Below, piece after piece: positions 1-19,994 of a stretch of DNA of 64,000 nucleotides. Positions within the stretch are counted from its first letter, which is position 1. Every line of letters begins with the position of its first letter. The notes below the pieces were generated by a model. It saw only the letters and a list, made by a program, of their open reading frames with translations, was not told where the DNA came from and searched no databases. Position numbers and translations under genes: made by a program. Source of the DNA: a virus; the IMG/VR virus record IMGVR_UViG_3300022188_000007, positions 80,486 through 144,485 of that record; one strand, written 5' to 3'.

Positions 1-3000
1 GTGGAACAGAGAATACCCCATTAACTGTTTTAAATAATCTATTACCAGAGCTTTTTAGAAATGAAAAACATATGGCTAAAATTGCCATGACATTGCAGGC
101 AGTAAAACCGGAAGCCGGTAAAGATACCGCATCCAGTCAAGCGCTATTAAACGCATTAGCAAAAATGAAGCCGGTAGAAGACCAACCCAGTAGTGGTAGA
201 GAAAAGGCCGTATTTGAAGAAGGTATAAAGACTAAGTTATATGATACTAAAATGACTAATGCTATTAATGCCAACTTTTTTAAACTTAATACCGGACAAG
301 ACACTGAAGCTCTGAATAGGCAGTTGAAGTTATTTGAAAGAAACTTAGGGTACGGTGGCGGAGTTATACGACAGGGTGCTCAATATGAGCCTACTGCTAA
401 TTTAGCAAGTCGTTTTCCCCTAGACCTTAAATCCATGGGCAACACAATGGGGGAAGAACTACATACCATGATGAATGAGTTTTTACGTGTAGGGGTACAG
501 AAAGGGCTGGATGTAAAACATGCTGGAGAGACCCCAATTGCTACTGAAATGGCAAATCTAATATCTAAAGGGTCCCCAGGCGTTTCAAGCTTAATAGAAA
601 AGATAAATGCCGGAGAAGGCTCATACGGCGACCTTACTGATTTTGCAGAGGCAAATAAGAAATCCTTAGGGCGTAGATTAGGTGGTATGTCTACCGAAGA
701 TTTGTATCTTGATGCAGCCAGTATTGCTGGAGGTAGAGGTGAGTCTACTACTAAACTAGATCCAGGTAATAGAGAAGAGCTTAAAGAATACATCACTAAA
801 TCTATAGGATTTGAGGGCTTTCTTCACGAGCTGAGTAATCAAGTAATTGAAGCGGCGCATGAAGGGCTTATGAAGTCAGTTAGTGCTTGGTCCGATACCA
901 AAAAACAAAAAGAATTTAAAGGTAGTTCAGCAGAAGACTATGTAAAGGCTTCTATTAGAAAACAACTTAAGGGTGACGGTATTAATATATTGGATTCAGC
1001 GGAAAGTCCTCTAATGCCTTTATATAAAATGAGGACCTCTGGCGCATCAGGCTATCAACAACGTGGTCTATATCAGGATAAATATGGTGACGTAGAGGCT
1101 CCTGAACTCGAAGGAATCTTCCAAGGCAAAGAGGCTGATGCTTATGCCGCTAAGTATAAGGAAGCTAAAGCAGTAGCTAAAAATATACAGGATGCTCTTA
1201 TAGACTTTAGTTCTAATAAAGGTGGTAATAAGAAAGGCAGTTATTCAATGCTACTTGAAAGCAGTATAGAGAATATCTACGCTGATCAGAAAGAGATTAT
1301 GAAGTTAGTACAGGAAATGACACTTGAGAAAGATAGAACTTCTTCAAGTGTAATGGATAGATTAAGTGGTGACGCACCTATGCATGGTTTTGCCAGGGAA
1401 GCTCTAGGTAAGAAGAACAGTAAAACTCAGAAAGAATTTCTAGAGAAATATAGTAGAATTGTAGGAGTTCCTAGCCTAGGTCAAGAATCCACAGCACTTC
1501 TGAAACAAGAGTATCTTCCTCAGGCAGCTTTCCTAGCTAATGCAGAGAAGGGGCCAGCACCACTTCAAGGTGAAACTACAGACGGAGCATATCAAGATAT
1601 ATTAGATGCCCATGATAAAGCTGTAGATAAGTTAAAAGAACAATATCTAGCGGATGCTATAGTAATAGCTCAAACAGATAATATATTAAAAGCAGCCAAA
1701 ACTAAAACAGGAGAAGCAACCTTTTTAACGCAACTACTCCCCACCTCTAAAGGTGATTATGCTAGTAAATCTTATGATGATCGTAGACAACGTATATCTC
1801 AAATCGCAAAGGAGAAAGTCCAAAGAGCTAATTTTGAACAACTCACTCATCCAAGAGGCTTAGAGAGAGATGCTTTTGGCAGATCAATGCCAAGTGGAGG
1901 AGGTCCAGGAGGTCCAGGAGCACTGAGCGTAGGTGGTACAGGGCCAATTGTGGACGTAAATATTGCTAGTGTTGCTGAAGGTGTAGGCGTCTTCCTAGGA
2001 AGGGCAGCCGGAATGGCCAAGACTACTGAGGATACTAGTCCTAGATTTACAATTTCTGAAGAATTAGAAAAAAAATTAGTAAGGGCTGAGGAGATAGTAG
2101 ATGAGATTACCGGTGGTTTAAATAAGGCTACAGGTGATAGTTTTGCTAATAAATATAGAGCCAGTGGGTTAAAGGGAGGTCAAGGGCTAGACCAAATAAA
2201 TGAAATTAAAAAACAGATGCAGGGCATCAAAGCGGGTAGGAAAGCCCGAGATATTCTAGATTCATCATCTTTACTAGGTACAGGCATTCATGCTAAACTA
2301 GAAGATAGTTATAAGAAGGAGTATATAACAGAGAGACCAGTCAGGTACGACTCAGTAGCTGGAGAAATCTCTGGCACAGTAGATGCAATTAAATATGATG
2401 ATAATGAGATTGCTACTCATATAGTAGATATTAAAACTACAAGTCAAAAGAACTACGACGATTTAAAACAAGCTGTAGCTAGATTCCAAGAAAAAACTGG
2501 TAAAGAAACTCCTACACTAGATGAGATAAAAGACTATGTAGGTAAGAATCTAAAAGATAGTAAATTAGGTGATGTAGCCTCTCAGCTGAATCTATATCTT
2601 GCTGCCACCAGTGAGGATGCTAAAGCATCCGCTCATTTCTATAGTAGAACTAACCCTGATCAAGAACCTATTAAGCTAGACCAGTTTTTTGATAAAGAGC
2701 GGCTAGATAATGATGTTGCTGCGGTAGGTCAAGCTAGAAGGGAGATTAAGTTGGAAGGCGGATCATTCGCTAAAACAGCTTCTTATACTGAAGCCGAAGA
2801 GATAGAAGTTTTACTGAAAAAGAAAGAAGTGGCCGAAGCAACTATAGCTGAATTAATAGCTACCAGTACAGAGTATTATACACTAGTAACAAAGCAGGGT
2901 CTCCGTGCAAGAAAGAATCTACCTTCAACAGGCGGCCTATCTGATAAAAGTTTAAATATGATAGGTACACGTGCTAGAGAATTTCAAGCACAGTCTGTTA

Positions 3001-6000
3001 AATTTGATGATATGGTTACAGCGAATCCTATAGCTGAAGGTCGAGAGACTTATAAAGTGCATCAGAACCTTAATGTGCTGCATGAGCGTGCTAAATATTT
3101 TCAACAAAAAGAGGGTTATGAAACGTCTGGTCCCCGGTTTGATAAAATGCACCCCCAGATCCAAGAAAGAGTAACGGAGCACGGCGAGAAGGGCCCAGGG
3201 GGCGCAGCCTTTAGTGCCCTAGTGACTGAGCTTAAAGATACTGGTAAAATTGAGGGCGGAGAGATTAATGCAGCATGGAAGGCATACAGATTAGCTGTGG
3301 GGGATTACTTTGTTAAAAAGATGGCTGCTGCAAGAAAGGAATTAGATAATACAGACCCAGGGGCTGATAATATAGTAAATGTTTTCGGTGCCTACCAGAA
3401 GTCTGTTCAAGCTTTTCAGGATTTTGCTAAGCATGGTCTAGGCAAACCTACAGATATTTATACTTATAATAAACAGTACTTACATGCAGAATCTGCAAGA
3501 GGGGCCGGAATTTATATGGATTCAGCTGCCCTTCAAAAAAAAGCATCTCAGCCTCTAGGAGAAGACCCCACATTACGTAATATCTTCCAAAATATGACTA
3601 ATCTAGAGGGCGACTCGGTACCAATTCCTAGAGATTCTGTTAGGGCAGCATTGGAAGATTTAATGGATATGGATAGATCATTGATTAATCTTTATACAAA
3701 TGCAGAAAAAGTAGCCCATATGGGCAAAGATATAAATCTAGGATGGAATTTTGATAAAGTAAAAGGCGGATTATCTAGATTAAGAGCAGCCCTAGACTTA
3801 CAACTGAAACAACCAGTAGGTGAGCTTTATAATGAAGATCAGATAACCTATCTTAGAACAGTTTTAAAGGAATTAAAAGGACTGGAGACTATTTATATCA
3901 GCCTAGATCTGGATACAGACTCTTTTAAGAATCCCACAGGTGAATATAAATTCCCGACTTTAGTTCCTGTACCGAAACAATTATCTAGAGACCAGCAGTC
4001 TGCCATGCATTACCAGAATATTGAAAAAATTAAAGGTCATTATAGAACACCAGAGGCAGAAGGTGGGGCCAGGGAAGGGGATTCCTTTGTTTATAATGCT
4101 AAGACTTTCGGGCCTAGCGGTAAACAGATGGATAACCAGAGATTTGTAATTTCTAAATACGGTGAAGCAATAAATAGTGCAGGGAAGTCTGTTCCAATTC
4201 TGAAAAGTAGGCTAGATAACTTAAATAAATCCTTAGTGGACGGTAACAGAACTTTCAGTGTTGCTATAGAGAGAGTAGTTAAATGGGGCGCAGCCGCCAC
4301 ACTAGTTTATGGTGGACTAAGTTATATTAAAGATGCTGTTAAACACATGTCTGATGTTGAGACTGCTATGGCTAGATTACAGATGGTGATGAATCCATTA
4401 ACTACTGATTTCGACTCTCTACAAAAAGCAGCTTTAGGTTTTGCTAAGCAGTATGGTGTGGAGACTACGGATGTTTTAGGTAGTATGAAGGTATTTGCAC
4501 AGCAAGGTTTGAGCCAAGGGGAAGTAGAAGAGAGGACCCAAACTTCTACATTAGCAGCTAATGTTACAACTTTGAGTGCTGTAGACGCTACTGAAGCCTT
4601 AACTGCAGCTATGAAGGTATTTAGAGCCGAGGGTGAGAGTTCTATGAGGTTCTTAGATTCTTGGAGTCAAGTAGAGGCAAGGGCAGCTATTACAGCCGGC
4701 GATTTAGCCGATGCCATAAAAAAATCAGCTTCTGCTGGTAGGAATGCCGGGTTCACTTTTGATGAGTTGAATGGTATGGTAGCTGCTATAGGGTCTACTA
4801 CACGTCAAACAGGTAAAGAGGTAGGTACTTCTTTAAGATTTATCTTCAGACGAATTTCAGCGGATAAAGGACCTAAAGCTCTAAAAGGTGTAGGAGTAGC
4901 AACTACTACACCGAAAGGCACACTCAGACCTGGTTATAAGGTACTTGAGGATTTGGCAGGTAAGTGGGAAGAGTTAGAACAAGCTCAAAAACTAAGTATA
5001 GCCCAGGCTATTGGTGGTACTCGTCAGTACAACCAGGTATTAGTATTGATGGATAACTGGGACCAAGTAGTGAAAAGCACAACCGATAGTATGAATGCTA
5101 AAGGTTCAGCTGAAAGAAGAAACCTTAAGTTGATGAAAACTTATTCTAAGCAATTAGAACAAACTAAAGCAGTCTTTTCTGCGTTAAAAGTAGAAGTAGG
5201 TAAAGTAGTTCTTCCTAGTTTTAAAGCAGGTCTAACCGGTATAAGAGGATTGGTAGAAGCGGTGAATAATGTCCCCGCATCTTTTAAATTAGCTGGAGCC
5301 GGGATGGTGTTATTTGTGGGATATATAACTAAAGGGGCTGAGGCCCTTAATACCATAATGAGCCTAGTAGATAGAACTAAACTTTCTTTTTCAGCCCTAA
5401 AAGATGATTTTTCTAAAGGGATAGATAAAGGGATGTTTGAGGTCTTTGGTAAAGGTACTCCAGAGCTAGATTCAGATTTATTTGGTCTTTCTAAGTTAAG
5501 TGATACTGGTACTGTAAATATTGATGATATGGAAAGCTCTTTAGGTAAGTTAGCTTTCGGGGCTTTATCAGCAGGTCAAGCCTTCAATAAATTCGCAGGC
5601 ATAGTAGGCTCTGACTCTGCGTCTGCAGTTTCTGCAGTCGGTAAATACGTGACAGCCTTTGGCGCTCTAGTAGAAAAAACAGGCACCGGTATATCTTTAA
5701 TACCAGGGATACCTGGTCCAGTAGACGAAGCTGTAGGGGTAGCAACAAGCTTTACAGGCAAAGCAATAAAAGGTACTGGCGGAGCTTTTGATTTTGTAGG
5801 TGATAAGGTGGGTAAAGGGGCCCAGTCCTGGATGGAGGGCTTTGCTTCACAGAATACATCTGCAATGAAATCAATGGCCCCACTTTTAGGTACATTAGGG
5901 GGGATAGCTTTATTAGCCCCAACAATAATAGACGCATTCAAAAACTTAACTCAATCTGCAACAGACTATAAAGATGAGCAGTTAAATAGGTTGGAGGTAG

Positions 6001-9000
6001 ATGCTAAGGAGATTGATTCTCTACAGGGATTAATTACTTCATATAAAAATTTACAAGATCAGAAAGAGAAGATAACTAGATTATCAGACCCAAAGGTTCA
6101 GGCTAAGGGTATAAAACGTGGCGAATATAAAAGCCCTATCTTGGAAAAGATTGACGCTTTAAAGGCTACTAGAACATTTGATTCTAACTTAGGCGCTATG
6201 GACCCTAGCATGATAGCAGGTTTCGATGAGTTTGGCCGTGTAATATTAAGTAATACAGCTAATCTAACAGGATATCTAGAGGAATTAAAAAGAGCCAAGA
6301 CTGTCACACTAGCCTTATCTAAACTTAAAATAGCAGCCCGTTTTACAGACGATCTTACTGAGACGGGGGGCAATCAAGAATGGAAGCAGCAGGTTAAATC
6401 ACTTGCAGCCGAATTCCCATTAATTGGTGAAATGTTGGCTAAGAATATCACTGTAGGGCCTAAGAAAGCACTAGAAGTTATAAGAGAAGAGCTAGATCAA
6501 CTTTTAGCGGCTAAAGCAGAAGCCCCTATGTCTACGGCATTTGATTCAGACATAGAGAGATCATTAACAGCACATGCTAAAGTATTAAAAACTTTCAGTG
6601 CTACATATGCAGAACTAGGTAAAACCTTAAGTAGTATAAGTACTGAAGGTGCTACTGTAACTGATATCGCGGATCTATATAAATCACCAGACGCATTGAA
6701 GACGTTTGATCTTCAGGCCGCATATGAAGATAAATACCAGATTGCTGAAGTAAGGGGAACTGTTAGTGGTAGAGACATCGCAGCATCTAAAGTATTAAGA
6801 ACTCAATCAAGTGGACTGGGTTCTTATATAGAAGCGTCTAGTGTTCTTACTGAAGCTAATTTATTTTCGGCAGGACGATTACCTAGGAAACCCAAGAAAG
6901 ATGGCACTATAGGTGCATCAGATAATGACCTTGTTACACTTAATAAAAACTTTGCAGAGAAATATGGTATTGCTACAGGCCAAGCTACTTTGAAAATAGG
7001 TAAAGACCATAAGTTATTCTTAGAATTTATAGACGCACTCACAACAACCCCGACTACTAAAGAGTTTTCACAAGCAGAAATTGAAGCAGCAGCAAGAGCT
7101 TTTTTCCCTGTTGATGAGATATTACAAAAGGCCCAAATAAGTGTAACTAAGCTTAATACTTTTGTAGCTGGAGCGTCAGCAGGTATATTAGGGGTATCTG
7201 AAAAAAAATTAAATACACGTCAGTTTGATTTAGGTGAACGCTTCTACGATCAAATTCCTACTAATGTATTATTACAGACTGAAAAAGGTTACAATACAAA
7301 AACAGGTACTTTTGGAAAACAGGACTATAAAGAAGATTATAGTTCAGACTTTATTGATAAGTATTATGATCCCCTACAAAAGTATAACACAGCCAAATCT
7401 GCCTTAGGGGGAGACAACGCCTCATTGGACGCCTCAGTATTAGGAGGTCTGGCCGAACAACTTCGAGGCCTACAAGATATTTTAAAAAACAATTCAATAG
7501 CTTTTCAATATAGAGCAGCAATAGAGGATTTAAATAAAGCACTGTATGAGGGGGCTAGAGCCACAAGGAAAAGTATACTTGTAGAACAAGAAAGGCAAAA
7601 AGTTGATAAACATACTGCTGGGTTTATGCGCGGTAAAACTAAAGGCGTGGCTTCTATTGATCAGGGGGTTACTAACTATAAAGATTTAAATGATCAGCAA
7701 AGAGCCTCGTTAATGTTTAAAGATTATGATGCCCTAGCAAAGAAAATTCTTGTACAAGAGACTAGTATTGAAGGCTTAATAGGCCAGTCTAAGTCAGTTG
7801 CAAGCACCTATGCGGATATCCAAGAGATAGGTAAAGCTCCTGAAGGTTTTGATGCAATAATGACTAGGGGCCGTAATGTTGAGTTAATGAGTATTATGGA
7901 TAAAGTAGATAACGATAAGGGGGCTGCTCAAATTTCAATGAGAGTTTCGGAACTGAAGTCTCCTTTAGAGGGTATTTTAGCGAACACCGACATAATGGCC
8001 GCCAATACCTATGGAAGACCAGGGGATATTAAAAGAGCTGCAGCTACTGCAGAAGAGAACTTAGTTATAGCCGAACAAAGGAAGCTTGCAGGTAAAGGCC
8101 CATTGGATAATACTGTTGACAATAAAACTGATCCAGTGAAAACATTCAAAAGTCTTCAGAAACTAATGACCATCAGAGACGCCGCCGCAAAGGAAGGAGA
8201 TACTGTTACTGTACGTGCACTGGACAATACACTTGCTGATTCTTATGGTAGGGCTTTGAAAGTATATGGTATGAAGGATTTTGCTAGGTTAACTAAACTA
8301 GTTGCTCCTACCAAGTTTTTTTCTTCCAATAACAAGGAATTAGTGGCATCAAGGGCATCCGCTTTAGCACAAAAAGGTATAGGTACAACTCCAGACAGAA
8401 TGATGCAATCTATAGAGTCTGCTAAGATGGCAAAAGCCGCCCTAAGGACTCAGAGCTTTATTGATAAGTTAACTGCCTTTAAAGCCCCTGAGAAAGAGAT
8501 CGAGCGTGCAAAGAATAGGCAGTGGTATGTACCTTCTAAAGAAGTAAGGGACTATGAAAAAGCCTACGCAACAGATCCCAGTAAACCACTAATAAATCCT
8601 AAAATATTTGAGAAGGCTCTAATCGCTGGAGCAATACTTCCTGCTTTTCAGGGGAAATCTTTGGGTGAGAAGAGAACTACTATAGAAGATCAAATAAACA
8701 GGTTACAGAAACAAAAAGATAATTACCCTAAGGAAGGTAAAGAGGCTGAAAAGCTAGGGATTGATAAAAAAATAGAAGGCTATCAAAAGATATTAACGGA
8801 TGATTTAGATCCTCAACAATTTGTAACTTCCACTTTACAAGGGCTATCAACAACAGCACTTGCTGCATACGAAGGGGTGGGAATATTCGGAGGCTCCCAG
8901 TCTGATAAAGAAAATATGGCTGCCGTAGGTGCAGGTCTTTTTGTTATAATGAAATCACTAGAGTCTAGAATAGGTAAAGACAATATGCCACAATATTTCA

Positions 9001-12000
9001 AGGACTTTTCTAAAGAAGCAGTGGATAAGATTAAGATCGCGGTTGAAACAGGAGATTACTCTGATATGGCCAATGATCTAGGTAAAAAAACCAAAAAGTT
9101 TTTAAAGGGTTTTAATAAGTCCATGGAAGCTCAAACCGAAAAGGCGGAAGACGCAGGCATTGACCCTGAGAAAGACATTAGAGAACGTCGTAAAAGACTA
9201 AAAAAGTTAAATGCTACCCTGGATCTGGAGAGTACTACTAAGTCTCTTAATGAGGTCACTGATGTAGGGAGCAACAATTTGTTGAGAGGGTTAGAAGCCA
9301 TAGCAGTTGTAATGACTGCGCAAGCAGTTGGGGGCTGGAAATCTAAAAAAGGGGAAACAGCAGCCAGAGTCAAGGATGGTGTAAACGTAGCTAAACAACA
9401 AGGTCTAGCTTCTTTAGCTTACTCTGAAAAGAATGCTGCAGCCGTAGATGCCTACATAGGAAAGCTTGTACTGACCCAAAAGGAGTTGGCAGAGAAGAAA
9501 GGTCCTGATGGCGGAGCAATTAATATAGTTATGGATGTTATGGAGGACTTTAAAACTAGTTTAACATTGGCTGCTGCCGAAGGTAAAACACTTGAGGAAG
9601 CAATGTCAGGGCTTCAAGATAAAATAGGTGACACTAAAGTTTTTACCGGTATTTACACAGATGTGGCTAAATTAATAGGAGCTATGGAGAACTTTAGAGC
9701 AGAACTTCAAAAATCATTTACAACTTTTGATGATAAACGTTTATTAGATCCTACACGTTCTTTAAAGGGAGAGTTATTGGGTTTTGGGGGCGAGACAACT
9801 CTTCCAATAGGTAGACGTGACATGTCGACTCAACAAAGAGCTTACGCAGGTGGGTCAGACTCCTTAAGGTCATCCTTTGCAGTAATGTCTAAAGGGATTT
9901 TGATACAAGAGGCCCAAATAAAAACTTTAGGTTTTGTTAGATCTCAGATAGCTGACACTGAACAAAATATAGATTTTGGTACCAAATATGGAACATCTGA
10001 TTCACAATTAGAAGCTTGGGAGATGCACTTAAAGGGGCTTGAAGGCACTCTGGCTAACTTACAAAACGTGACTACTTTAACTAGCCAACAGTTGCAGGCG
10101 TTGGGTACTTCTATGCGAGGGGCTATTAAGTACTCAGAGGCTATCAACAAATTAAATGATGCTTTGGCAGATGTTTCTGTGGAGCACGCTGTAACTGGTA
10201 TAACAGGATTAAAAACTTATTTTGATTCTTTTGAGGTGTTGCTAGGTGGCTCAGATCCGTTAGCCGCCCAACCTGTTTCACCAGAACAAGAAAGAATGGG
10301 AGCTAAGGTAGGAGTAAGATTAGTTTCTGGTGAATCAACCTCTATGGATATAGAACGTGCCCAGTTACTCACAGAGATAAAGAATGCCACAGACTCTAAA
10401 TCTAGAACTGCTGCTAGTATAAAACTAGGAGATCTTGATGAGAAGTATAGAAGGTTAGGTATTGATAAAGAACAACAAGTCGAGAACCAGCGGCTTGGTT
10501 CTACTATGAAGCCTTATGAGGATTTTTACCGTAATATGGAAGGGTTGTTAGGAAGTAATGAATTAAATGATAAACAATATGGAGAAATTAGTGGCGTTAA
10601 AAATGAATTTAAAGAAGCCATGAAAAGAGCTACGGAAAAAATACCTATAGATGAGGCAATAGCTCAGCTGGAAGGGCAAAAAGACAACTTAGGGGCTAAT
10701 CAATTCAAGGAAGCCATGAAAGAATTAGTGGCAATGAAAGCAACAGGGACTACACAAGTATATAGAGGTATGGATAGAACCAAAGACTGGCAAGGTATTA
10801 TGAGTAGAGTCATGGCAGGTTATGATAAAGAAATAGATGCATACAAGGCTGCAACCGGTACTACTGATTTAGATACTTCTTTAGAAAACATGGTAACTAA
10901 CCCACTAGTAAATGTTATTGGGATGTCTAATCTACTTCTAGCTGAATTAGTGACACACTTTGTAGACAAAAAAACTGCGGCAGACATACTCAATGGGCCT
11001 CAAAAAAAAGAGTTAGAACCAGATTACTTATTTTCTTCAATAGTCCCTGATAAAAAAGTTGTATTAGCAGAAGCACAAGATTTTCTGAAAGGCATTAGTA
11101 TTAATCCTGCGGACAATTTAAAAACACAGCCATATGATTTCAATAACGACAATATTGATCCAAATAGAGGCCGCCCTACATTGTTTGGTAGACCTGTAGG
11201 TCCAATAAGTAAAGATGCGCTTGGGTTGCCTCCAATACAAGATAAGGTAGTACCTCCACCTCCAACAGAGGTCGAATTAGCTGCTAAAAAGCATCCTAGG
11301 TTTAAGGAAATGGAGACTTACGTGAAAAATATAAGCCTTGATCCTATAGCTAATTTAAAAACAGAGCCATTTGGCCCTAATTCTGAGCAAGACAATTCAC
11401 AAATTGTAGCTGTAAATGAACTTCAGTTAGTAACTCTAAAAAAAATAGCTACCAGTCTTAGCAGTAATGGTTCTGGTGATTCCACTGAACCTACTACTAA
11501 AGCCGCAGGCGGAAGAATCTTTGGAGAAGGTGGTCCAAGAGAAGATAAGGTACCCGCTTATTTAAGTCCAGGAGAGTTTGTAATAAGAGCAGCTGCTGCA
11601 CAACGGCTTGGTTATGAGAATCTAGATGTAATGAATAAGAAAGGGCAGGTCCCTGTGGCTTTTGAGAGTGGGGGCTCCTTAAACCAGAGGCACATAACAC
11701 AAGCACATCAGTATTTTGTAGATCCTGATGCGGTACTGCCCCCAGAGTTTAATCCAGAGTCAGAGCTATATAATAAAGGAATAACAGGTAAATATATTGA
11801 TTTACGGAAGTCAATGCTTTCTGAAGAACAGCGGGAAGCTGTTGCAGGTATCTCCACATTAAAGGGATTATATAATACTTTTTCTGATATGGCTGGTAAT
11901 GATGAGGATAAATTAAATTCTTTATTTCCTGAAGATATAATGCCTGTAATGGAGCGTTTCGAAGAGAACAAAAAAGCCCAAGAAGAGAAAGGTATATTGG

Positions 12001-15000
12001 GTTGGATGAAAGGAAAATTAAAAACCAAAAATAAGGCAACAGCAGGTGCAAGGGCAGTTACAGGCCTTGATAAGGCCGAGTTATTAAAAGAAATAAGTAC
12101 CTATGCTGACGGTGGCCGAACCATTAGTACTGTTACTGGTAAACCTATACCCACAGCAGAGGAAACAGAAGAGGGTATGGCAAAGATGCGAGAAGCTTTA
12201 GGTTTTGTAGCTTCTGTAGGTCACCCAATTACTTCTATCCCCACCTCTATCTATGGCATGTATCAAGGTTTTAAAGAAAAAGGTCTTAGTGCCCAACCAG
12301 CTGTTGAAGGTTTTGGGGGCTTAGAACTATTAAATTATATACCACAGGCTAAAAGACTCGGTAAAATGAAAACAATTTTAAGTAAAGGTTTTGGTAGATA
12401 TTTTGATAACGCAGGGGACGTGAATGATTATTTTGATATTACTGGTAAGTTAGGGGGTAAACTAACTTCATCACACGGAGATGATTTTGACGCGTTACTA
12501 GCTTCCGAGAATACTTTTGAGGAGGGCGGCTTATCTCTTTGGGATAAATTACTGGGTAAACAGTTCGATCCTACAGAGAGATGGAAGGGTAAAAAGTTAC
12601 CATCAGGTATGGGAAAATTTGATAAACCTGAGGTGACAAAAAAATTAGAAGACGAAATAAAAGCTACAAAACGCCATGATGTTCATTCTTTTAGTTTCCT
12701 ACGCGAAAAACATGGTTTTGTGAAAGCATTACAACTTTATGGTGCAGGATCTCGTTTACAAGAAGGGGCAGATATATTAAAGAAGGCTGATGGTGGTAAG
12801 ATAAGAAGTTTTATAGGTGATTCCACAGGAGTAGCAGAGGTAGGAGAAGAGTTATTTAATGAAAGAATCAATGCCCCTGTACTAACTCGGTCTGTGGCCA
12901 GTATGATTAAATCAGAGTTTGGCACCTCAGACGTAGGTAACAATCAATTAGGTGCGCCAGTAGATAAATTAATGGGCACTTCGTTTGATCCATCTGCTAC
13001 CATGTTAAAAGATAGTAGAGCTTTTACAGCTGTTGGTAATAATATAAAATCATATGCTTCTACAGCCGATTTTAATACCGGTAGAGCGAAGTCTGATAAA
13101 TTGAAGGGCAATATAGGTAAAGGTAATATAATCCCAGGTATGGATGGATTAACCTCTATATATGATGGATTCTTAACTTCCAAATACAATAGCCCCTTCT
13201 TATCGCAAGAAGAGCAATCCAACAATAGGGCTTGGTATGAAGCCACTAGAGAGCAAGAGATAACCAATAAACAGAAATATGAATTATTAGGTGATGCAAA
13301 AACAGACGCAGATAGGAAACAGCTTACTGACTACTGGCAGTCTGTGGGTAAGGCTGCTCCAAGTAAGTTTGCTGATGGAGGGAATGTCGATGAAGAAGAG
13401 CCTGTGATTGAGTGGGGACATACTACTGCTAAAGCTGTCATGGATAAATGGACAGCGGAAGCTAAAGATGCGGCTATGTATAGATCGTTACATGCTATGT
13501 CTAGTGCTGAAGATTTTGCATTAAAATTGGATAGAAATAAAAAAGCTAGAACCGACATGACCAGAATTCTAGCTGATAACGAATACTTAGATAAAGACAC
13601 CCAAGAAGGGTATGATTATTCATTTGATAAACACCGAGGATTAAGAATACTTACTGATGAAGATTCGGGGGTGAAGGTAGGTAGAGTAATTACTAAGTCA
13701 TATCGTTCTGTAGATGAAAGTTATAGACCTAGATCTATGGCAACTGTTAAGAAACAAGTACATGACCCATTTGCTATATCCGAAGATGCTTATTCTTCTG
13801 GCGCGCTTACTGATTTCTCCGAGAGATTATCTCTAGACAGTAACTATGGTAATGAGGCTTTTAGGTACCACGGTGAGGGCCGTGATATATGGAAGAATAT
13901 GCAACGCTATAAGAAATTATTTTATGGCTCTCCGGGTGAAAGTAAAGCATCTGAAGGGTATTTAGCAAAATTTCAAGCAGGCCAAAAGAACCTTGATAAA
14001 GTACGTTTAGTGATGAAGGTTTTAGAAGAAGGTGGTAATATTTATGATGACTCCAGACTTCAACAGAAAGTGGGCGGACCAGCTAGGTTAGAGGCTTTTG
14101 ATTTTGGAGGTAAGAAAGGTACTGTAGATATACCTACTAGAAATTTCAAAAGAGCTGAACTACTTAAAGAATTACAAGCGTTATATGGGGATGAATCTCA
14201 AGGGGCCATCATTAGTGCTGAGAGGATAAAGAATGAAATCTCCGCTTTAAACGCGCAGAAAATAGAAACTTCTGATGGTACAGTGGAATACATAAGGGCA
14301 GATGAACAGAAATATACGTCTGTTTTACAGGATATTAAAGACGCCGCCGTAATTGCACGAGGTGAGTTAGATCCTAAAGGCAAAAATGCAAGAAGACGGG
14401 CTGTTACAAGAGCTCAGTCCCCTCTATTATATAATTATTCTAATACGCTACGGGACAAAGAATTGGCAAGAGCAGGGTTCCTAAAGCAGACTGGCCCACC
14501 GAAAGATTTTTCCGACTTCGATAAAAAAGATATTCCAGATATGAAAAAATGGCTGGCTGCTGGAGATTATGGCTATGTAACTAGTGACACAGTGCAACGA
14601 ATGAAGGACTTTATTACGAGTGAGACATACAATGTGGGTGGTGTAGCTACTAGATCTATGCCAGTTAAACATTTTGGCGGTGTGGTAACACAAACTGGCC
14701 CAGTATTTGCTCAGAAAGGTGAATACATTATACCTAAAGGATTTAAAGATGGTACTTCGGGTTTGGGTGGTGTAACCTCCAGTCCAGCTTCCCAAGCTTT
14801 AACTTCAGGATCGATGAGATTAGATGGTTCTGAGGTATTATCACAATTAAATAGTTTAAGTTTAAAGGTGGATAATACTACGGTTAAGGTAGACACTACT
14901 GAGGCAGCAAGTAGACTATCATCTTCTATTAGTGATGCTTTTAGTGGTATAGAACCATTTAAAGTAGAAGATAAAACTCTATTAGTAGAAGATAAGGTTT

Positions 15001-15788
15001 TCTCAGTAGAAGATAAAAAGTTAACTGTGGAAGATAAAACTTTTACTATTGAAGATAAAACTTTTAAGGTAGAGGATAAAATTTTCTCAGTAGAAGATAA
15101 AAAGTTAACTGTGGAAGATAAAACTTTTACTATTGAAGATAAAACTTTTAAGGTAGAGGATAAAATTTTCTCAGTGGAAGACAAAAAATTAACCGTGGAA
15201 GACAAGGTTTTTACTATTGAGGATAAGGTTTTTAAGGTAGAGGATAAAATTTTCTCAGTGGAAGACAAAAAATTAACCGTGGAAGACAAGGTTTTTACTA
15301 TTGAGGATAAGGTTTTTAAGGTAGAGGATAAAGTACTAACAATAGATGCTTCTAATATTTCAGTAGATATCGGCGATGCAGAGGCTAGATTAGCTTCAGC
15401 GATTAGCAATGCGATTAGTAGTGCGGTAGTTAATATAAAAGTTGAGGCCCCTACTACTGGAGGGTCAGTCGGCGCGGATAAATTCGATCAGTTAGCCCAA
15501 ACAGTATCAGATGTAAACGATAAACTTATAAGTAGTTCTGTGATTATGGAGAGTAGAGTGAAGATTTTAGAAGGGGGTATAGACTTAGTTGTGGATGAAA
15601 GCGTGGAAAAAAAACTAGCTTCTAAATTGATGAGTATTAATGAAAGTGTAACAGGGGCTCTCTTGAGTGTAGATACTGTAGCTAATAATGTAACCACTCA
15701 AATAGATAGTATAAGACGTGAGTCTAACGAAATAAAATATCTAGCACATATGGCTTTAAATGCTAGAGGTTCAGGAAATATAACTTAA
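1..15788 (+). CDS. Giant multidomain tail tape-measure protein (5'-truncated, >5,260 aa)
   Basis: The frame of the 72..15788 ORF stays open back to base 3 (GTENTPLTVLNNLLPELFRNEKHM) and has no SD before ATG 72, so the true start lies upstream of the window. It has a TP901-type core, hydrophobic helices (FKLAGAGMVLFVGYI, MAPLLGTLGGIALLAPTII), a helical Ala/Lys/Glu-rich composition, typical C-terminal TMP motifs and a position just before hub-like genes. Confidence 0.9.
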   Translation, partial: GTENTPLTVLNNLLPELFRNEKHMAKIAMTLQAVKPEAGKDTASSQALLNALAKMKPVEDQPSSGREKAVFEEGIKTKLYDTKMTNAINANFFKLNTGQDTEALNRQLKLFERNLGYGGGVIRQGAQYEPTANLASRFPLDLKSMGNTMGEELHTMMNEFLRVGVQKGLDVKHAGETPIATEMANLISKGSPGVSSLIEKINAGEGSYGDLTDFAEANKKSLGRRLGGMSTEDLYLDAASIAGGRGESTTKLDPGNREELKEYITKSIGFEGFLHELSNQVIEAAHEGLMKSVSAWSDTKKQKEFKGSSAEDYVKASIRKQLKGDGINILDSAESPLMPLYKMRTSGASGYQQRGLYQDKYGDVEAPELEGIFQGKEADAYAAKYKEAKAVAKNIQDALIDFSSNKGGNKKGSYSMLLESSIENIYADQKEIMKLVQEMTLEKDRTSSSVMDRLSGDAPMHGFAREALGKKNSKTQKEFLEKYSRIVGVPSLGQESTALLKQEYLPQAAFLANAEKGPAPLQGETTDGAYQDILDAHDKAVDKLKEQYLADAIVIAQTDNILKAAKTKTGEATFLTQLLPTSKGDYASKSYDDRRQRISQIAKEKVQRANFEQLTHPRGLERDAFGRSMPSGGGPGGPGALSVGGTGPIVDVNIASVAEGVGVFLGRAAGMAKTTEDTSPRFTISEELEKKLVRAEEIVDEITGGLNKATGDSFANKYRASGLKGGQGLDQINEIKKQMQGIKAGRKARDILDSSSLLGTGIHAKLEDSYKKEYITERPVRYDSVAGEISGTVDAIKYDDNEIATHIVDIKTTSQKNYDDLKQAVARFQEKTGKETPTLDEIKDYVGKNLKDSKLGDVASQLNLYLAATSEDAKASAHFYSRTNPDQEPIKLDQFFDKERLDNDVAAVGQARREIKLEGGSFAKTASYTEAEEIEVLLKKKEVAEATIAELIATSTEYYTLVTKQGLRARKNLPSTGGLSDKSLNMIGTRAREFQAQSVKFDDMVTANPIAEGRETYKVHQNLNVLHERAKYFQQKEGYETSGPRFDKMHPQIQERVTEHGEKGPGGAAFSALVTELKDTGKIEGGEINAAWKAYRLAVGDYFVKKMAAARKELDNTDPGADNIVNVFGAYQKSVQAFQDFAKHGLGKPTDIYTYNKQYLHAESARGAGIYMDSAALQKKASQPLGEDPTLRNIFQNMTNLEGDSVPIPRDSVRAALEDLMDMDRSLINLYTNAEKVAHMGKDINLGWNFDKVKGGLSRLRAALDLQLKQPVGELYNEDQITYLRTVLKELKGLETIYISLDLDTDSFKNPTGEYKFPTLVPVPKQLSRDQQSAMHYQNIEKIKGHYRTPEAEGGAREGDSFVYNAKTFGPSGKQMDNQRFVISKYGEAINSAGKSVPILKSRLDNLNKSLVDGNRTFSVAIERVVKWGAAATLVYGGLSYIKDAVKHMSDVETAMARLQMVMNPLTTDFDSLQKAALGFAKQYGVETTDVLGSMKVFAQQGLSQGEVEERTQTSTLAANVTTLSAVDATEALTAAMKVFRAEGESSMRFLDSWSQVEARAAITAGDLADAIKKSASAGRNAGFTFDELNGMVAAIGSTTRQTGKEVGTSLRFIFRRISADKGPKALKGVGVATTTPKGTLRPGYKVLEDLAGKWEELEQAQKLSIAQAIGGTRQYNQVLVLMDNWDQVVKSTTDSMNAKGSAERRNLKLMKTYSKQLEQTKAVFSALKVEVGKVVLPSFKAGLTGIRGLVEAVNNVPASFKLAGAGMVLFVGYITKGAEALNTIMSLVDRTKLSFSALKDDFSKGIDKGMFEVFGKGTPELDSDLFGLSKLSDTGTVNIDDMESSLGKLAFGALSAGQAFNKFAGIVGSDSASAVSAVGKYVTAFGALVEKTGTGISLIPGIPGPVDEAVGVATSFTGKAIKGTGGAFDFVGDKVGKGAQSWMEGFASQNTSAMKSMAPLLGTLGGIALLAPTIIDAFKNLTQSATDYKDEQLNRLEVDAKEIDSLQGLITSYKNLQDQKEKITRLSDPKVQAKGIKRGEYKSPILEKIDALKATRTFDSNLGAMDPSMIAGFDEFGRVILSNTANLTGYLEELKRAKTVTLALSKLKIAARFTDDLTETGGNQEWKQQVKSLAAEFPLIGEMLAKNITVGPKKALEVIREELDQLLAAKAEAPMSTAFDSDIERSLTAHAKVLKTFSATYAELGKTLSSISTEGATVTDIADLYKSPDALKTFDLQAAYEDKYQIAEVRGTVSGRDIAASKVLRTQSSGLGSYIEASSVLTEANLFSAGRLPRKPKKDGTIGASDNDLVTLNKNFAEKYGIATGQATLKIGKDHKLFLEFIDALTTTPTTKEFSQAEIEAAARAFFPVDEILQKAQISVTKLNTFVAGASAGILGVSEKKLNTRQFDLGERFYDQIPTNVLLQTEKGYNTKTGTFGKQDYKEDYSSDFIDKYYDPLQKYNTAKSALGGDNASLDASVLGGLAEQLRGLQDILKNNSIAFQYRAAIEDLNKALYEGARATRKSILVEQERQKVDKHTAGFMRGKTKGVASIDQGVTNYKDLNDQQRASLMFKDYDALAKKILVQETSIEGLIGQSKSVASTYADIQEIGKAPEGFDAIMTRGRNVELMSIMDKVDNDKGAAQISMRVSELKSPLEGILANTDIMAANTYGRPGDIKRAAATAEENLVIAEQRKLAGKGPLDNTVDNKTDPVKTFKSLQKLMTIRDAAAKEGDTVTVRALDNTLADSYGRALKVYGMKDFARLTKLVAPTKFFSSNNKELVASRASALAQKGIGTTPDRMMQSIESAKMAKAALRTQSFIDKLTAFKAPEKEIERAKNRQWYVPSKEVRDYEKAYATDPSKPLINPKIFEKALIAGAILPAFQGKSLGEKRTTIEDQINRLQKQKDNYPKEGKEAEKLGIDKKIEGYQKILTDDLDPQQFVTSTLQGLSTTALAAYEGVGIFGGSQSDKENMAAVGAGLFVIMKSLESRIGKDNMPQYFKDFSKEAVDKIKIAVETGDYSDMANDLGKKTKKFLKGFNKSMEAQTEKAEDAGIDPEKDIRERRKRLKKLNATLDLESTTKSLNEVTDVGSNNLLRGLEAIAVVMTAQAVGGWKSKKGETAARVKDGVNVAKQQGLASLAYSEKNAAAVDAYIGKLVLTQKELAEKKGPDGGAINIVMDVMEDFKTSLTLAAAEGKTLEEAMSGLQDKIGDTKVFTGIYTDVAKLIGAMENFRAELQKSFTTFDDKRLLDPTRSLKGELLGFGGETTLPIGRRDMSTQQRAYAGGSDSLRSSFAVMSKGILIQEAQIKTLGFVRSQIADTEQNIDFGTKYGTSDSQLEAWEMHLKGLEGTLANLQNVTTLTSQQLQALGTSMRGAIKYSEAINKLNDALADVSVEHAVTGITGLKTYFDSFEVLLGGSDPLAAQPVSPEQERMGAKVGVRLVSGESTSMDIERAQLLTEIKNATDSKSRTAASIKLGDLDEKYRRLGIDKEQQVENQRLGSTMKPYEDFYRNMEGLLGSNELNDKQYGEISGVKNEFKEAMKRATEKIPIDEAIAQLEGQKDNLGANQFKEAMKELVAMKATGTTQVYRGMDRTKDWQGIMSRVMAGYDKEIDAYKAATGTTDLDTSLENMVTNPLVNVIGMSNLLLAELVTHFVDKKTAADILNGPQKKELEPDYLFSSIVPDKKVVLAEAQDFLKGISINPADNLKTQPYDFNNDNIDPNRGRPTLFGRPVGPISKDALGLPPIQDKVVPPPPTEVELAAKKHPRFKEMETYVKNISLDPIANLKTEPFGPNSEQDNSQIVAVNELQLVTLKKIATSLSSNGSGDSTEPTTKAAGGRIFGEGGPREDKVPAYLSPGEFVIRAAAAQRLGYENLDVMNKKGQVPVAFESGGSLNQRHITQAHQYFVDPDAVLPPEFNPESELYNKGITGKYIDLRKSMLSEEQREAVAGISTLKGLYNTFSDMAGNDEDKLNSLFPEDIMPVMERFEENKKAQEEKGILGWMKGKLKTKNKATAGARAVTGLDKAELLKEISTYADGGRTISTVTGKPIPTAEETEEGMAKMREALGFVASVGHPITSIPTSIYGMYQGFKEKGLSAQPAVEGFGGLELLNYIPQAKRLGKMKTILSKGFGRYFDNAGDVNDYFDITGKLGGKLTSSHGDDFDALLASENTFEEGGLSLWDKLLGKQFDPTERWKGKKLPSGMGKFDKPEVTKKLEDEIKATKRHDVHSFSFLREKHGFVKALQLYGAGSRLQEGADILKKADGGKIRSFIGDSTGVAEVGEELFNERINAPVLTRSVASMIKSEFGTSDVGNNQLGAPVDKLMGTSFDPSATMLKDSRAFTAVGNNIKSYASTADFNTGRAKSDKLKGNIGKGNIIPGMDGLTSIYDGFLTSKYNSPFLSQEEQSNNRAWYEATREQEITNKQKYELLGDAKTDADRKQLTDYWQSVGKAAPSKFADGGNVDEEEPVIEWGHTTAKAVMDKWTAEAKDAAMYRSLHAMSSAEDFALKLDRNKKARTDMTRILADNEYLDKDTQEGYDYSFDKHRGLRILTDEDSGVKVGRVITKSYRSVDESYRPRSMATVKKQVHDPFAISEDAYSSGALTDFSERLSLDSNYGNEAFRYHGEGRDIWKNMQRYKKLFYGSPGESKASEGYLAKFQAGQKNLDKVRLVMKVLEEGGNIYDDSRLQQKVGGPARLEAFDFGGKKGTVDIPTRNFKRAELLKELQALYGDESQGAIISAERIKNEISALNAQKIETSDGTVEYIRADEQKYTSVLQDIKDAAVIARGELDPKGKNARRRAVTRAQSPLLYNYSNTLRDKELARAGFLKQTGPPKDFSDFDKKDIPDMKKWLAAGDYGYVTSDTVQRMKDFITSETYNVGGVATRSMPVKHFGGVVTQTGPVFAQKGEYIIPKGFKDGTSGLGGVTSSPASQALTSGSMRLDGSEVLSQLNSLSLKVDNTTVKVDTTEAASRLSSSISDAFSGIEPFKVEDKTLLVEDKVFSVEDKKLTVEDKTFTIEDKTFKVEDKIFSVEDKKLTVEDKTFTIEDKTFKVEDKIFSVEDKKLTVEDKVFTIEDKVFKVEDKIFSVEDKKLTVEDKVFTIEDKVFKVEDKVLTIDASNISVDIGDAEARLASAISNAISSAVVNIKVEAPTTGGSVGADKFDQLAQTVSDVNDKLISSSVIMESRVKILEGGIDLVVDESVEKKLASKLMSINESVTGALLSVDTVANNVTTQIDSIRRESNEIKYLAHMALNARGSGNIT
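2154..2750 (+). other. PD-(D/E)xK (Cas4/RecB-like) nuclease domain within the tape-measure protein
   Basis: Motifs occur in the expected order: YRASGL (2154), GTGIH (2277), TE, SGTVD (2373), IVDIKT (2427), QLNLY (2583). This matches the G-x-x-x-H / E / G-x-x-D / D-x-K / Q-x-x-x-Y signature. No Fe-S cysteines are present. Confidence 0.8.
4260..5250 (+). other. Tape-measure core domain (TP901/PhageMin_Tail-like)
   Basis: The stretch AIERVVKWGAAATLVYGG...DVETAMARLQMVM...AKQYG...FAQQG...AANV...ATEALTAAM...DLADAIKKSASAGRNAGFTFDELNGMVAAIGSTTRQTGKEVGTSLRFIF...SIAQAIGGTRQYN is characteristic of this family. Confidence 0.9.
14955..15332 (+). repeat. In-frame tandem repeat: 18 x 21 bp (xxx[VI]EDK heptads) with an 84-bp higher-order period
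   Basis: The protein reads PFKVEDK TLLVEDK VFSVEDK KLTVEDK TFTIEDK TFKVEDK IFSVEDK KLTVEDK... The four-heptad block FSVEDK/KLTVEDK/xFTIEDK/xFKVEDK repeats four times with near-identical DNA. Confidence 0.97.
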
Positions 15789-15804
15789 AGGGAAATGTAT
15801 AAAT

Positions 15805-17829: not shown

Positions 17830-17832
17830 AAA

Positions 17833-18417: not shown

Positions 18418-18432
18418 GGAGCTTAAAAATAT

Positions 18433-19424: not shown

Positions 19425-19438
19425 GGAGGAATATAAAA

Positions 19439-19726: not shown

Positions 19727-19732
19727 ATAATT

Positions 19733-19978: not shown

Positions 19979-19994
19979 TAGAGGAGGAATACTT

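What the first reader, a model, noticed from the sequence alone, without database searches (positions are those of the whole stretch)
2154..2750. Intact-looking Cas4/RecB-like nuclease embedded in a tape-measure protein
Seen: RASGL, GTGIH, E, GTVD, DIKT and QLNLY in canonical order, with a ~45-aa helical insert between DIKT and QLNLY and no Fe-S cysteines. Known: this is the PD-(D/E)xK exonuclease signature, normally found in stand-alone phage replication/recombination genes. Inference: an injected nuclease could process genome ends for circularisation, attack host DNA or interfere with CRISPR adaptation. It would have to be held inactive inside the virion.
Basis: partly seen in the sequence, partly recalled or inferred. 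Interest (0 to 1): 0.82.

Follow-up and report, generated by a model that had tools for sequence, protein, structure and literature searches.

The report
Active-looking nuclease inside giant tape measure
The 7,801-residue tail "ruler" protein of an uncultured giant phage carries, between a built-in RNA polymerase and its ruler core, a conserved cysteine-free DNA-cutting domain of the RecB/Cas4/lambda-exonuclease type, so the phage probably injects a nuclease with its DNA, which the papers I could search do not describe for tape measure proteins.

Summary
All six motifs sit in one frame at window 2157-2597, inside an ORF that is the C-terminal 5,261 aa of a 7,801-aa tape measure protein (TMP).

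An AlphaFold model of the domain (pLDDT 90) matches Cas4 SSO0001 and a phage exonuclease at Z 12.4. The top 44 structural matches are all RecB/Cas4/lambda-exo-type nucleases.

The domain occurs in 68 of 81 giant RNA-polymerase-TMP fusions, at the same position. G759, H763, E777, D794, K811, Q861 and Y865 are invariant, and D809 is D in 67 and E in one.

Thirteen relatives lack it through a clean ~250-aa deletion, which needs at least 5 independent losses. Its divergence tracks the polymerase (Mantel r 0.85), so it is inherited vertically and is not a mobile cassette.

It is not Cas4 proper. The whole chain has no cysteine. Three relatives also encode a separate canonical Fe-S Cas4-like exonuclease.

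Most likely it is an active DNA nuclease that enters the cytoplasm with the polymerase half. Its substrate is untested.

The held literature has no TMP-embedded PD-(D/E)xK nuclease. This scan has already found the same arrangement in at least six other genomes.

The parts
3..15788 (+). C-terminal 5,261 aa of the 7,801-aa tape measure gene. The gene starts upstream of the window at G000:C1:72868, with a TTG start after an AGGGGGG ribosome-binding site.
   Evidence: The own protein P0092 is 7,801 aa.
1890..1919 (+). Gly/Pro linker PSGGGPGGPG (full-length aa 3170), about 75 aa upstream of the nuclease domain.
2112..2789 (+). PD-(D/E)xK nuclease domain of the RecB/Cas4/lambda-exo type, with no cysteine. 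Window aa 704-929, full-length aa 3244-3469.
   Evidence: Family HMM envelope. AF2 pLDDT 90 and pTM 0.88. Z 12.4 to 4ic1_D and 3k93.
2157..2171 (+). N-terminal motif RASGL. S721 is S in 64 of 68 homologs.
2277..2291 (+). GTGIH motif on the first core helix. G759 and H763 are invariant (68/68).
2331..2333 (+). E777 on strand beta1, invariant (68/68).
2373..2384 (+). Motif II, GTVD. D794 lies on beta2 and is invariant. It aligns with the GRAD motif of SSO0001.
2427..2438 (+). Motif III, DIKT. D809 is D in 67/68 and E in 1. K811 is invariant (68/68). Both lie on beta3. The motif aligns with IEIKT of SSO0001.
2439..2582 (+). Variable helical spacer between motif III and QxxxY. It is about 30 aa longer than in canonical relatives.
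2583..2597 (+). Motif IV, QLNLY. Q861, N863 and Y865 are invariant (68/68).
4422..5018 (+). Tape measure core, Pfam PF10145 PhageMin_Tail.
   Evidence: E 5.8e-28, 98.6 bits; matches annotated TMPs in 305 cultured-phage records.
5271..5330 (+). First hydrophobic segment after the TMP core (full-length aa 4297-4316).
5871..5942 (+). Second hydrophobic segment (full-length aa 4497-4520).

Best explanation
**Shown**
- Window aa 704-929 fold as a RecB/Cas4/lambda-exonuclease-type PD-(D/E)xK nuclease.
- It has a complete active-site set (H763, E777, D794, D809, K811, Q861, Y865).
- It has no Fe-S module.
- It is one module of a 7,801-aa tape measure protein. The order along the chain is: N-terminal leader, two-barrel RNA polymerase, Gly/Pro linker, nuclease, helical region, TMP core, two hydrophobic segments, long C-terminal ruler.

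**Inferred**
- The domain is a Mg2+-dependent DNA nuclease kept active by selection.
- No hydrophobic segment separates it from the polymerase. It should therefore end up on the same side of the membrane as the polymerase, in the cytoplasm.
- It would arrive there just ahead of the DNA, as proposed for the polymerase of Thermus phage P23-45 gp96.
- Only a few copies per virion would arrive. No peptidase motif is evident that could release them, so they would stay tethered near the entry pore.

**Favoured mechanism**
- I favour action on linear DNA ends at the entry site: 5'-to-3' resection of the incoming genome's leading end. This would start recombination or circularisation and spoil the end for RecBCD/AddAB.
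- I rank this above bulk degradation of host DNA.
- The job is accessory. It may be partly redundant with the phage's separate Fe-S Cas4-like exonuclease, which would explain the repeated losses.
- Silence in the virion would follow from confinement or partial unfolding in the tail tube, away from DNA.

**My odds**

| Claim | Probability |
|---|---|
| Real nuclease fold with a competent active site | 0.9 |
| Delivered to the cytoplasm | 0.7 |
| Substrate is the phage's own DNA end | 0.35 |
For: **Fold**
- AF2 model: pLDDT 90, pTM 0.88.
- Foldseek probability 1.0 to EXO5, SSO0001, AdnAB, ACE1, MGME1, RecE and lambda exonuclease.
- VIA Z 12.4 to 4ic1_D (172 aligned, rmsd 3.7) and Z 12.4 to 3k93 (169 aligned, rmsd 3.1). 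The top 44 rows are all from this nuclease clade.
- 140 viral models match at E<=0.001. The 50 listed that carry a name are exonuclease, Cas4-like, PD-(D/E)XK or uncharacterised proteins.

**Sequence**
- phrog_1706 at E 1.7e-5.
- The family profile hits Cas4 4ic1 at E 0.003, with GxxxH, GxxD and (D/E)xK aligned.

**Selection**
- The catalytic residues are invariant in 68 homologs. Mean pairwise identity across the domain is 32%.
- The domain is an island of conservation between weakly conserved linkers.

**Context**
- TMP identity.
- RNA polymerase motifs upstream in the same ORF: DFDGD at aa 2433 and TRYGSKG at aa 1470. Pfam RNA_pol_Rpb1_2 gives E 3.2e-4.
- Only two hydrophobic segments exist, and both lie downstream of the TMP core.
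- Precedent and delivery model: P23-45 gp96 (10.1101/2022.12.01.518664).

**Accessory role**
- 13 of 81 relatives lack the domain through a clean deletion of about 250 aa.
- This needs at least 5 changes on the tree.
- Relatives G001-G003 carry a separate canonical PDDEXK_1 protein at E 1e-24 to 1e-29. It has CxxC-type cysteines, and in G001 it sits next to a RuvC-like ORF.
Against: - No biochemical or virion data exist for any member. Activity, substrate and polarity are all inferred.
- Pfam PDDEXK_1 stays below its gathering score.
- A resecting nuclease at the pore would degrade one strand of the first genes to enter. That is tolerable only if the genome has terminal repeats, and the termini are unknown because the record is a fragment, about 55% complete.
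- Repeated loss fits a conflict or host-specific role just as well.
- Whether the nuclease part is cleaved off, or whether it is folded in the tail tube, is unknown.
Confidence: 0.55

Rival explanations
1. An injected weapon against host or rival DNA. The nuclease nicks or degrades the host chromosome, plasmids or a superinfecting phage in the first seconds, before any phage gene is expressed. The phage's own DNA would be spared by modification, by end protection or by timing.
For: - The same fold and active-site evidence as above.
- Iyer et al. proposed that injected DNase domains of polyvalent proteins degrade host DNA or rival elements (PMC5512222).
- Repeated loss, and variable extra cargo in relatives (DEDD exonuclease, SLT, PT-TG), look like arms-race turnover.
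Against: - Only a few copies per virion would arrive.
- They would probably stay tethered to a membrane-inserted TMP, since no peptidase motif was found.
- No self-protection mechanism was identified.
- The closest structural relatives are end-processing exonucleases, not bulk DNases.
Confidence: 0.28
2. An RNA-directed activity coupled to the fused polymerase. It would process the first phage transcripts or degrade host mRNA, as the herpesvirus SOX and influenza PA PD-(D/E)xK nucleases act on RNA.
For: - It is fused in one chain about 800 aa after the polymerase catalytic motif.
- SOX, Rai1 and eIF3d appear among the weaker structural matches.
Against: - The polymerase is retained in all 13 lineages that lost the nuclease, so the polymerase does not depend on it.
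- The best matches are DNA exonucleases at Z 10-12.4. SOX matches at Z about 7.
Confidence: 0.07
3. A non-catalytic structural or DNA-end-binding module. It would be a nuclease fold recruited to hold the genome terminus or to pack the tail lumen, like the inactivated Cas4 derivative TP1 in the TTV1 nucleocapsid.
For: - A virion protein derived from Cas4 is a known precedent (PMC4625639; PMC5704561).
- The domain sits in a structural protein.
Against: - TP1 is an inactivated derivative.
- Here every catalytic residue is invariant in 68 sequences while the rest of the domain averages 32% identity. A purely structural role does not predict that pattern.
Confidence: 0.05
4. Interference with CRISPR adaptation, or another defence-specific decoy role, as suggested for the Cas4-like proteins of Campylobacter phages.
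For: - It resembles Cas4 in fold and profile.
- A phage Cas4-like protein has been linked to the acquisition of host-derived spacers (PMC4804229, listed).
Against: - It lacks the Fe-S module that defines Cas4.
- It has no detectable link to Cas1/Cas2.
- The host and its CRISPR type are unknown.
Confidence: 0.04

Closest known systems
Cas4 nucleases, e.g. Sulfolobus SSO0001 (PDB 4ic1) and Pyrobaculum Pcal_0546 (PDB 4r5q)
   Same: - Same fold: Z 12.4 and 10.0.
- It is the only PDB sequence hit below E 0.01 for the family profile, with GxxxH, GxxD and (D/E)xK aligned.
- It shares the QxxxY motif.
   Different: - It has no Fe-S cysteines at all. All Cas4 family members have four (PMC5704561).
- It is not a free protein and not CRISPR-linked.
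- It carries about 30 extra residues between motif III and QxxxY.
Lambda exonuclease / RecE / YqaJ-type phage exonucleases (PDB 1avq, 3h4r, 3k93, 3syy)
   Same: - Cysteine-free PD-(D/E)xK exonucleases of phages.
- Z 9.7-12.4.
- The same order of active-site residues.
   Different: - No Pfam YqaJ match in the record at E<=1.
- Those proteins are free-standing recombination enzymes made after infection. This one is a domain of a virion protein.
Thermus phage P23-45 gp96: tape measure protein with a fused N-terminal virion RNA polymerase (10.1101/2022.12.01.518664 / PMC10770324)
   Same: A giant TMP whose N-terminal part is a two-barrel RNA polymerase with a DFDGD motif. This is enzymatic cargo delivered through a long tail.
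   Different: - The gp96 paper mentions no nuclease.
- gp96 has a metallopeptidase domain, and none was found here.
- Neither the polymerase region nor the nuclease gives a tblastn match in 50,697 phage records.
Polyvalent proteins of phages and conjugative elements (Iyer et al. 2017, PMC5512222)
   Same: Large multidomain proteins thought to be delivered with the DNA. They carry enzymes that act early, including DNases.
   Different: [quoted passage not shown]
- Those proteins are not tape measure proteins.
Staphylococcal-nuclease domain on the baseplate hub protein of the BtI1 prophage-like element (PMC2147016)
   Same: A nuclease domain decorating a tail protein.
   Different: - A different fold (SNase).
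- A different tail protein (the hub).
- No polymerase partner.
- The function is likewise unknown.

Membership tests
PD-(D/E)xK nuclease superfamily, RecB/Cas4/lambda-exo branch | Alpha-beta-beta-beta-alpha-beta core fold | tested here: met
   The AF2 model shows H57-81, E86-95, E98-109, E115-124, helices, E185-192. Z 12.4 to 4ic1_D and 3k93, and the top 44 rows are all from this branch.
PD-(D/E)xK nuclease superfamily, RecB/Cas4/lambda-exo branch | Catalytic D on beta2 and (D/E)xK on beta3 | tested here: met
   D794 lies in strand 98-109 of the model. D809 and K811 lie in strand 115-124. They align with GRAD and IEIKT of SSO0001. Conservation is 68/68, 67/68 (+1 E) and 68/68.
PD-(D/E)xK nuclease superfamily, RecB/Cas4/lambda-exo branch | QxxxY motif on the helix after the core strands, and the GxxxH helix before them | tested here: met
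   Q861, Y865, G759 and H763 are each 68/68. Their positions on helices H159-179 and H57-81 are seen in the model.
PD-(D/E)xK nuclease superfamily, RecB/Cas4/lambda-exo branch | Metal-dependent nuclease activity | not testable with these tools
   Needs protein expression and an assay.
Pfam PF12705 (PDDEXK_1) | Score at or above the curated gathering cut-off (22 bits) | tested here: not met
   18.5, 19.9 and 14.5 bits. It is the best Pfam hit, but below the cut-off and covering only motifs II-III.
Cas4 family in the strict sense | Fe-S cluster module with four conserved cysteines | tested here: not met
   There are 0 Cys in the domain and in all 7,801 aa. The defining feature is taken from PMC5704561.
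Lambda exonuclease / YqaJ (PF09588) | Profile match | tested here: not met
   No match at E<=1 in the record. The fold similarity is real, at Z 10.4-12.4.
Tape measure protein (PF10145, TP901 type) | Profile match above the cut-off | tested here: met
   98.6 bits against 33.2. phrog_4211 at E 5.9e-83. 305 cultured-phage records match, and those listed are annotated as TMPs.
Tape measure protein (PF10145, TP901 type) | Position after the tail tube and chaperone genes in the tail module | tested here: inconclusive
   The upstream and downstream ORFs gave no PHROG match, apart from one HNH endonuclease.
TMP-fused virion RNA polymerase (P23-45 gp96 type) | Two-barrel polymerase motifs in the same polypeptide as the TMP core | tested here: met
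   DFDGD at aa 2433 and TRYGSKG at aa 1470. Pfam RNA_pol_Rpb1_2 gives E 3.2e-4, below its cut-off. The motifs are conserved in the family consensus. No fold was computed here.
TMP-fused virion RNA polymerase (P23-45 gp96 type) | Detectable sequence homology to gp96 | tested here: not met
   tblastn of the most conserved polymerase stretch against 50,697 phage records gave no match at E<=1e-3.

The most novel reading that the evidence does not exclude
The tape measure protein delivers a tethered 5'-to-3' exonuclease that sits at the cytoplasmic mouth of the entry pore. There it resects the leading end of the phage's own genome as it emerges. The resulting 3' tail would escape RecBCD/AddAB and start annealing or recombination of terminal repeats, before any phage gene is expressed. 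This would be a new, protein-encoded step of genome delivery.
Probability: 0.3. Interest if true: 0.8.

Novelty: new variant of a known kind. Interest (0 to 1): 0.62.

Why it matters
Tape measure proteins are known to carry cell-wall enzymes, and in one Thermus phage an RNA polymerase. A conserved and apparently active DNA nuclease inside one adds a new class of tail-delivered cargo.

It raises two concrete questions. How is a nuclease kept harmless next to the packaged genome? What does it cut in the first seconds of infection?

The family is large. It holds at least 80 protein clusters, from contigs of up to 325 kb. It also offers natural controls, because 13 lineages have deleted exactly this module. 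A cysteine-free RecB/Cas4-like nuclease that tolerates passage through a tail tube could also interest enzymologists.

Tried and rejected
**Searches that found nothing useful**
- megablast of window 1-20000, and tblastn of the domain and of the polymerase region, against 50,697 phage records: no match.
- The search for related loci with the single domain: no relatives. The alignment-based scan then worked.
- phmmer of the single domain against PDB sequences: only chance-level hits.
- PHROG annotation of nine upstream ORFs and one downstream ORF: nothing except one HNH endonuclease.
- The listing of cluster members gave no names or hosts.
The Pfam position of PF00929 in relatives therefore rests only on motifs.

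**Ideas tested and dropped**
- *Recent duplication of the phage's own Cas4-like gene.* hhalign of the domain family against the stand-alone Cas4-like proteins of relatives was not significant, so there is no evidence for it.
- *Toroidal homotrimer like lambda exonuclease.* complex prediction with three copies of the domain returned no answer. This says nothing either way.
- *A peptidase that frees the domain.* No HExxH or HxxEH motif occurs anywhere in the chain.
- *Mobile or homing-endonuclease-like cassette.* Rejected, because the domain and polymerase pairwise identities co-vary: Mantel r 0.85, with 0 of 999 permutations as high.
- *The DEDD exonuclease (PF00929) of some relatives replaces this domain.* Rejected for two reasons. 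In three of those nine proteins the DEDD motifs lie at the N-terminus, aa ~135-430 (none was found in the other six). Eight of the nine PF00929 proteins also keep the PD-(D/E)xK domain.
- *P0073 holds a diverged or replaced domain.* Rejected. Its flanks align to neighbours on either side of a clean deletion.
Full report
**1. The observation**

ORF 3..15788 (+) runs open off the 5' end of the window. Its translation holds the motifs in this order:

| Motif | Residue | Nucleotides |
|---|---|---|
| RASGL | aa 719 | 2157-2171 |
| GTGIH | aa 759 | 2277-2291 |
| E777 | aa 777 | 2331-2333 |
| GTVD | aa 791 | 2373-2384 |
| DIKT | aa 809 | 2427-2438 |
| QLNLY | aa 861 | 2583-2597 |

- The domain has no cysteine.
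- K811 and Q861 are 49 residues apart.
- A canonical Cas4-like protein of a related phage has 17 residues between its DYK and QLSLY. The real insert is therefore about 30 aa. The model shows it as helices.

**2. The gene**

- The window is bases 80486-144485 of a 144,485-bp IMG/VR record, estimated about 55% complete.
- The frame opens upstream. A TTG at 72868 follows AGGGGGG and gives 7,801 aa. This equals the length of the catalogued own protein P0092.
- Window residue 1 is residue 2541 of the full chain.
- The tape measure identity is firm:
  - PF10145 scores 98.6 bits against a cut-off of 33.2.
  - phrog_4211 reaches E 5.9e-83.
  - tblastn matches 305 cultured-phage records, and those listed are annotated as TMPs. 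The best is Bacillus phage vB_BcoS-136 at 32.6% identity.
- Two hydrophobic segments follow the core, at full-length aa 4297-4316 and 4497-4520. There are none anywhere else.
- Upstream of the window the same chain carries TRYGSKG (aa 1470) and DFDGD (aa 2433). Pfam RNA_pol_Rpb1_2 gives a sub-threshold match at E 3.2e-4.
- This is the architecture shown experimentally for Thermus phage P23-45 gp96, a TMP with an N-terminal virion RNA polymerase (10.1101/2022.12.01.518664). That paper mentions no nuclease.

**3. Is it a nuclease fold?**

*Sequence alone is weak but consistent.*
- PDDEXK_1 is the best Pfam hit, but below its cut-off: 18.5-19.9 bits against 22.
- phrog_1706 ("CRISPR/Cas system associated") gives E 1.7e-5. 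phrog_1990 ("Cas4-domain exonuclease") gives E 0.0059.
- A profile of 13 family members finds one PDB sequence below E 0.01, Cas4 SSO0001 (4ic1, E 0.003). Its LGDILH, GRAD and IEIKT align with the GxxxH, GxxD and DIKT motifs here.

*Structure settles it.*
- The AlphaFold2 model, built on a 20-row alignment, has pLDDT 90 and pTM 0.88. It shows the alpha-beta-beta-beta-alpha-beta order.
- D794 lies on the second core strand. D809 and K811 lie on the third. Q861 and Y865 lie on the following long helix.
- Foldseek gives probability 1.0 to EXO5, SSO0001, AdnAB, ACE1, MGME1, RecE and lambda exonuclease.
- VIA-align gives Z 12.4 to 4ic1_D (172 aligned, rmsd 3.7) and Z 12.4 to the phage-related exonuclease 3k93 (169 aligned, rmsd 3.1). 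The first 44 rows all belong to this clade.
- In the viral library, 140 models match at E<=0.001. The 50 listed that carry a name are exonuclease, Cas4-like, PD-(D/E)XK or uncharacterised proteins.

**4. Is it kept active?**

- An exhaustive phmmer search of 1.84 billion representatives found only 21 relatives. Most are proteins of 4,500-7,900 aa, and the rest are shorter entries of 163-1,540 aa that may be fragments.
- A search with the polymerase region found 80 clusters of giant TMPs (4,271-7,998 aa) on contigs of up to 325 kb.
- An HMM of the domain finds it in 68 of 81 giants, always about 800 aa after DFDGD where that motif is present.
- Residue conservation in those 68:
  - G759, H763, E777, G791, D794, K811, Q861, N863 and Y865 are invariant.
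  - D809 is D in 67 and E in one.
- Mean pairwise identity in the domain is only 32%.
- The domain is a conservation island (0.32-0.41) between poorly conserved linkers (0.18-0.21).
- From my own knowledge, not tested here: in lambda exonuclease and RecB the equivalent His, Glu, Asp, Asp/Glu and Lys bind the two metals and activate water.

**5. Presence and absence**

- Thirteen giants give no HMM hit.
- In twelve of them, the distance between conserved anchors on either side of the domain is 414-489 aa. In the proteins that have the domain it is 645-1,012 aa.
- In the thirteenth (P0073), the flanks align to neighbours on either side of a clean deletion.
- On a FastTree of the polymerase region, the domain occurs in both deep clades. 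The domain-less proteins are scattered: 7 changes in total, of which at least 5 are forced by well-supported branches.
- Pairwise identities of the domain and the polymerase co-vary: Mantel r 0.85, with 0 of 999 permutations as high.
- Together these results indicate an old, vertically inherited module that has been lost repeatedly. It is not a mobile cassette, and the polymerase and ruler do not need it.

**6. Not Cas4 proper, and not the phage's only such nuclease**

- The whole 7,801-aa chain has no cysteine, whereas other ORFs of the record have 1.2%. Homologs have 0-4 cysteines.
- All Cas4 family members have a four-cysteine Fe-S module (PMC5704561), so that membership test fails.
- Three related records (G001-G003) each encode a separate 385-412-aa protein that passes PDDEXK_1 at E 1e-24 to 1e-29.
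  - It has an N-terminal Cys and a CxxCxxxxxC motif.
  - In G001 a RuvC-like ORF precedes it.
  - In G001 it lies at 149 kb. The co-linear position in our record would be just beyond its end at 144.5 kb. This is an inference.
- hhalign finds no significant similarity between that protein and the TMP domain. The TMP copy is therefore not a recent duplicate.

**7. How it most likely works**

*Shown:* the fold, the complete active site, the conservation, the position in the chain, and dispensability.

*Inferred:*
- No hydrophobic segment lies between the polymerase and the nuclease. The polymerase must reach the cytoplasm to be useful, so the nuclease should enter the cytoplasm too.
- TMPs are thought to leave the tail ahead of the DNA and form its conduit (model).
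- Few copies arrive per virion. No peptidase motif is seen, so they probably stay tethered near the pore.
- The closest relatives are end-processing 5'-to-3' exonucleases.

I therefore favour resection of linear DNA ends at the entry site, above all the leading end of the phage genome. The stand-alone Cas4-like enzyme would provide later redundancy, which makes loss tolerable.

Bulk attack on host or rival DNA is the main rival. It is the role proposed for the ParB-like DNases of polyvalent proteins (PMC5512222).

An RNA role tied to the polymerase is unlikely, because the polymerase persists wherever the nuclease is lost.

A purely structural role, like the inactivated Cas4 derivative of TTV1 (PMC4625639), is contradicted by the invariant catalytic residues.

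Silence in the virion needs no special inhibitor if the domain is confined or partly unfolded in a channel of about 4.5 nm, away from DNA. The gp96 authors propose a similar solution. This is inference.

**8. Novelty**

- Five full-text searches found no TMP-embedded PD-(D/E)xK nuclease.
- The nearest ideas in the literature are:
  - the gp96 polymerase fusion;
  - polyvalent proteins with ParB-like DNases;
  - a staphylococcal-nuclease domain on a prophage hub protein (PMC2147016).
- I rate it a new variant of a known kind: enzymatic cargo on a tape measure protein.
- This scan has already reported the same arrangement in at least six other genomes. My results agree with those notes. They add the 68-sequence residue count, the loss count on a tree, the co-divergence test and the stand-alone paralog.

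Noticed in passing
G000:C1:72868-80485 (upstream of the window, same ORF); L002: The N-terminal 2,540 aa of the same protein carry two-barrel RNA polymerase motifs: TRYGSKG at aa 1470 and DFDGD at aa 2433. Pfam RNA_pol_Rpb1_2 gives E 3.2e-4. The region has no tblastn match in 50,697 phage records.
   Followed up: partly
window 3-15788 and the whole 7,801-aa chain: The chain has no cysteine in 7,801 residues, whereas other ORFs of the record have 1.2%. The 14 homologs checked have 0-4 cysteines each. This suggests selection against Cys in a protein that must travel through the tail and the cell envelope.
   Followed up: partly
window 14963-15332: There is an in-frame tandem repeat near the C-terminus. 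Its period is 21 nt (heptads of the VEDKxFx type), organised in 84-nt units with 4.4 copies. The near-identical protein P0002 is 56 aa (two units) shorter over the aligned part. The 56-aa gap was not mapped, so placing it in this repeat is my inference.
   Followed up: partly
relatives P0066, P0067, P0071, P0073, P0075, P0076, P0083, P0084, P0086; also P0057 and P0031: Nine related giant TMPs also carry Pfam PF00929, a DEDD 3'-5' exonuclease. In three of them the DEDDh motifs lie at aa ~135-430. One relative has an SLT domain (PF01464) and one has PT-TG (PF14449). The N-terminal cargo of this family therefore varies.
   Followed up: partly
L017:611-2688 (G001), L016, L015: Related phages encode a canonical Fe-S Cas4-like exonuclease of 385-412 aa. 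In G001 it lies directly after a 179-aa RuvC-like ORF. This is probably the recombination module.
   Followed up: partly
L003:12914-13783 (G000:C1:65913-66782): A 290-aa HNH endonuclease ORF (phrog_559, E 3.5e-26) lies about 6 kb upstream of the tape measure gene, among ORFs that have no PHROG match.
   Followed up: no
window 37139-42730, 43160-53335, 58043-61615: Further very large ORFs lie downstream on the same strand: 1,863 aa, 3,391 aa (TTG start) and 1,190 aa. They are presumably tail-tip or fibre proteins and were not examined.
   Followed up: no
family of P0002-P0090: At least 80 clusters of 6,500-8,000-aa RNA-polymerase-TMP fusions come from contigs of up to 325 kb. At about 1.5 Å per residue, a 7,801-aa ruler would imply a tail of roughly 1.2 µm if the whole chain measures length. 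That would be longer than the 800 nm reported for P23-45.
   Followed up: no
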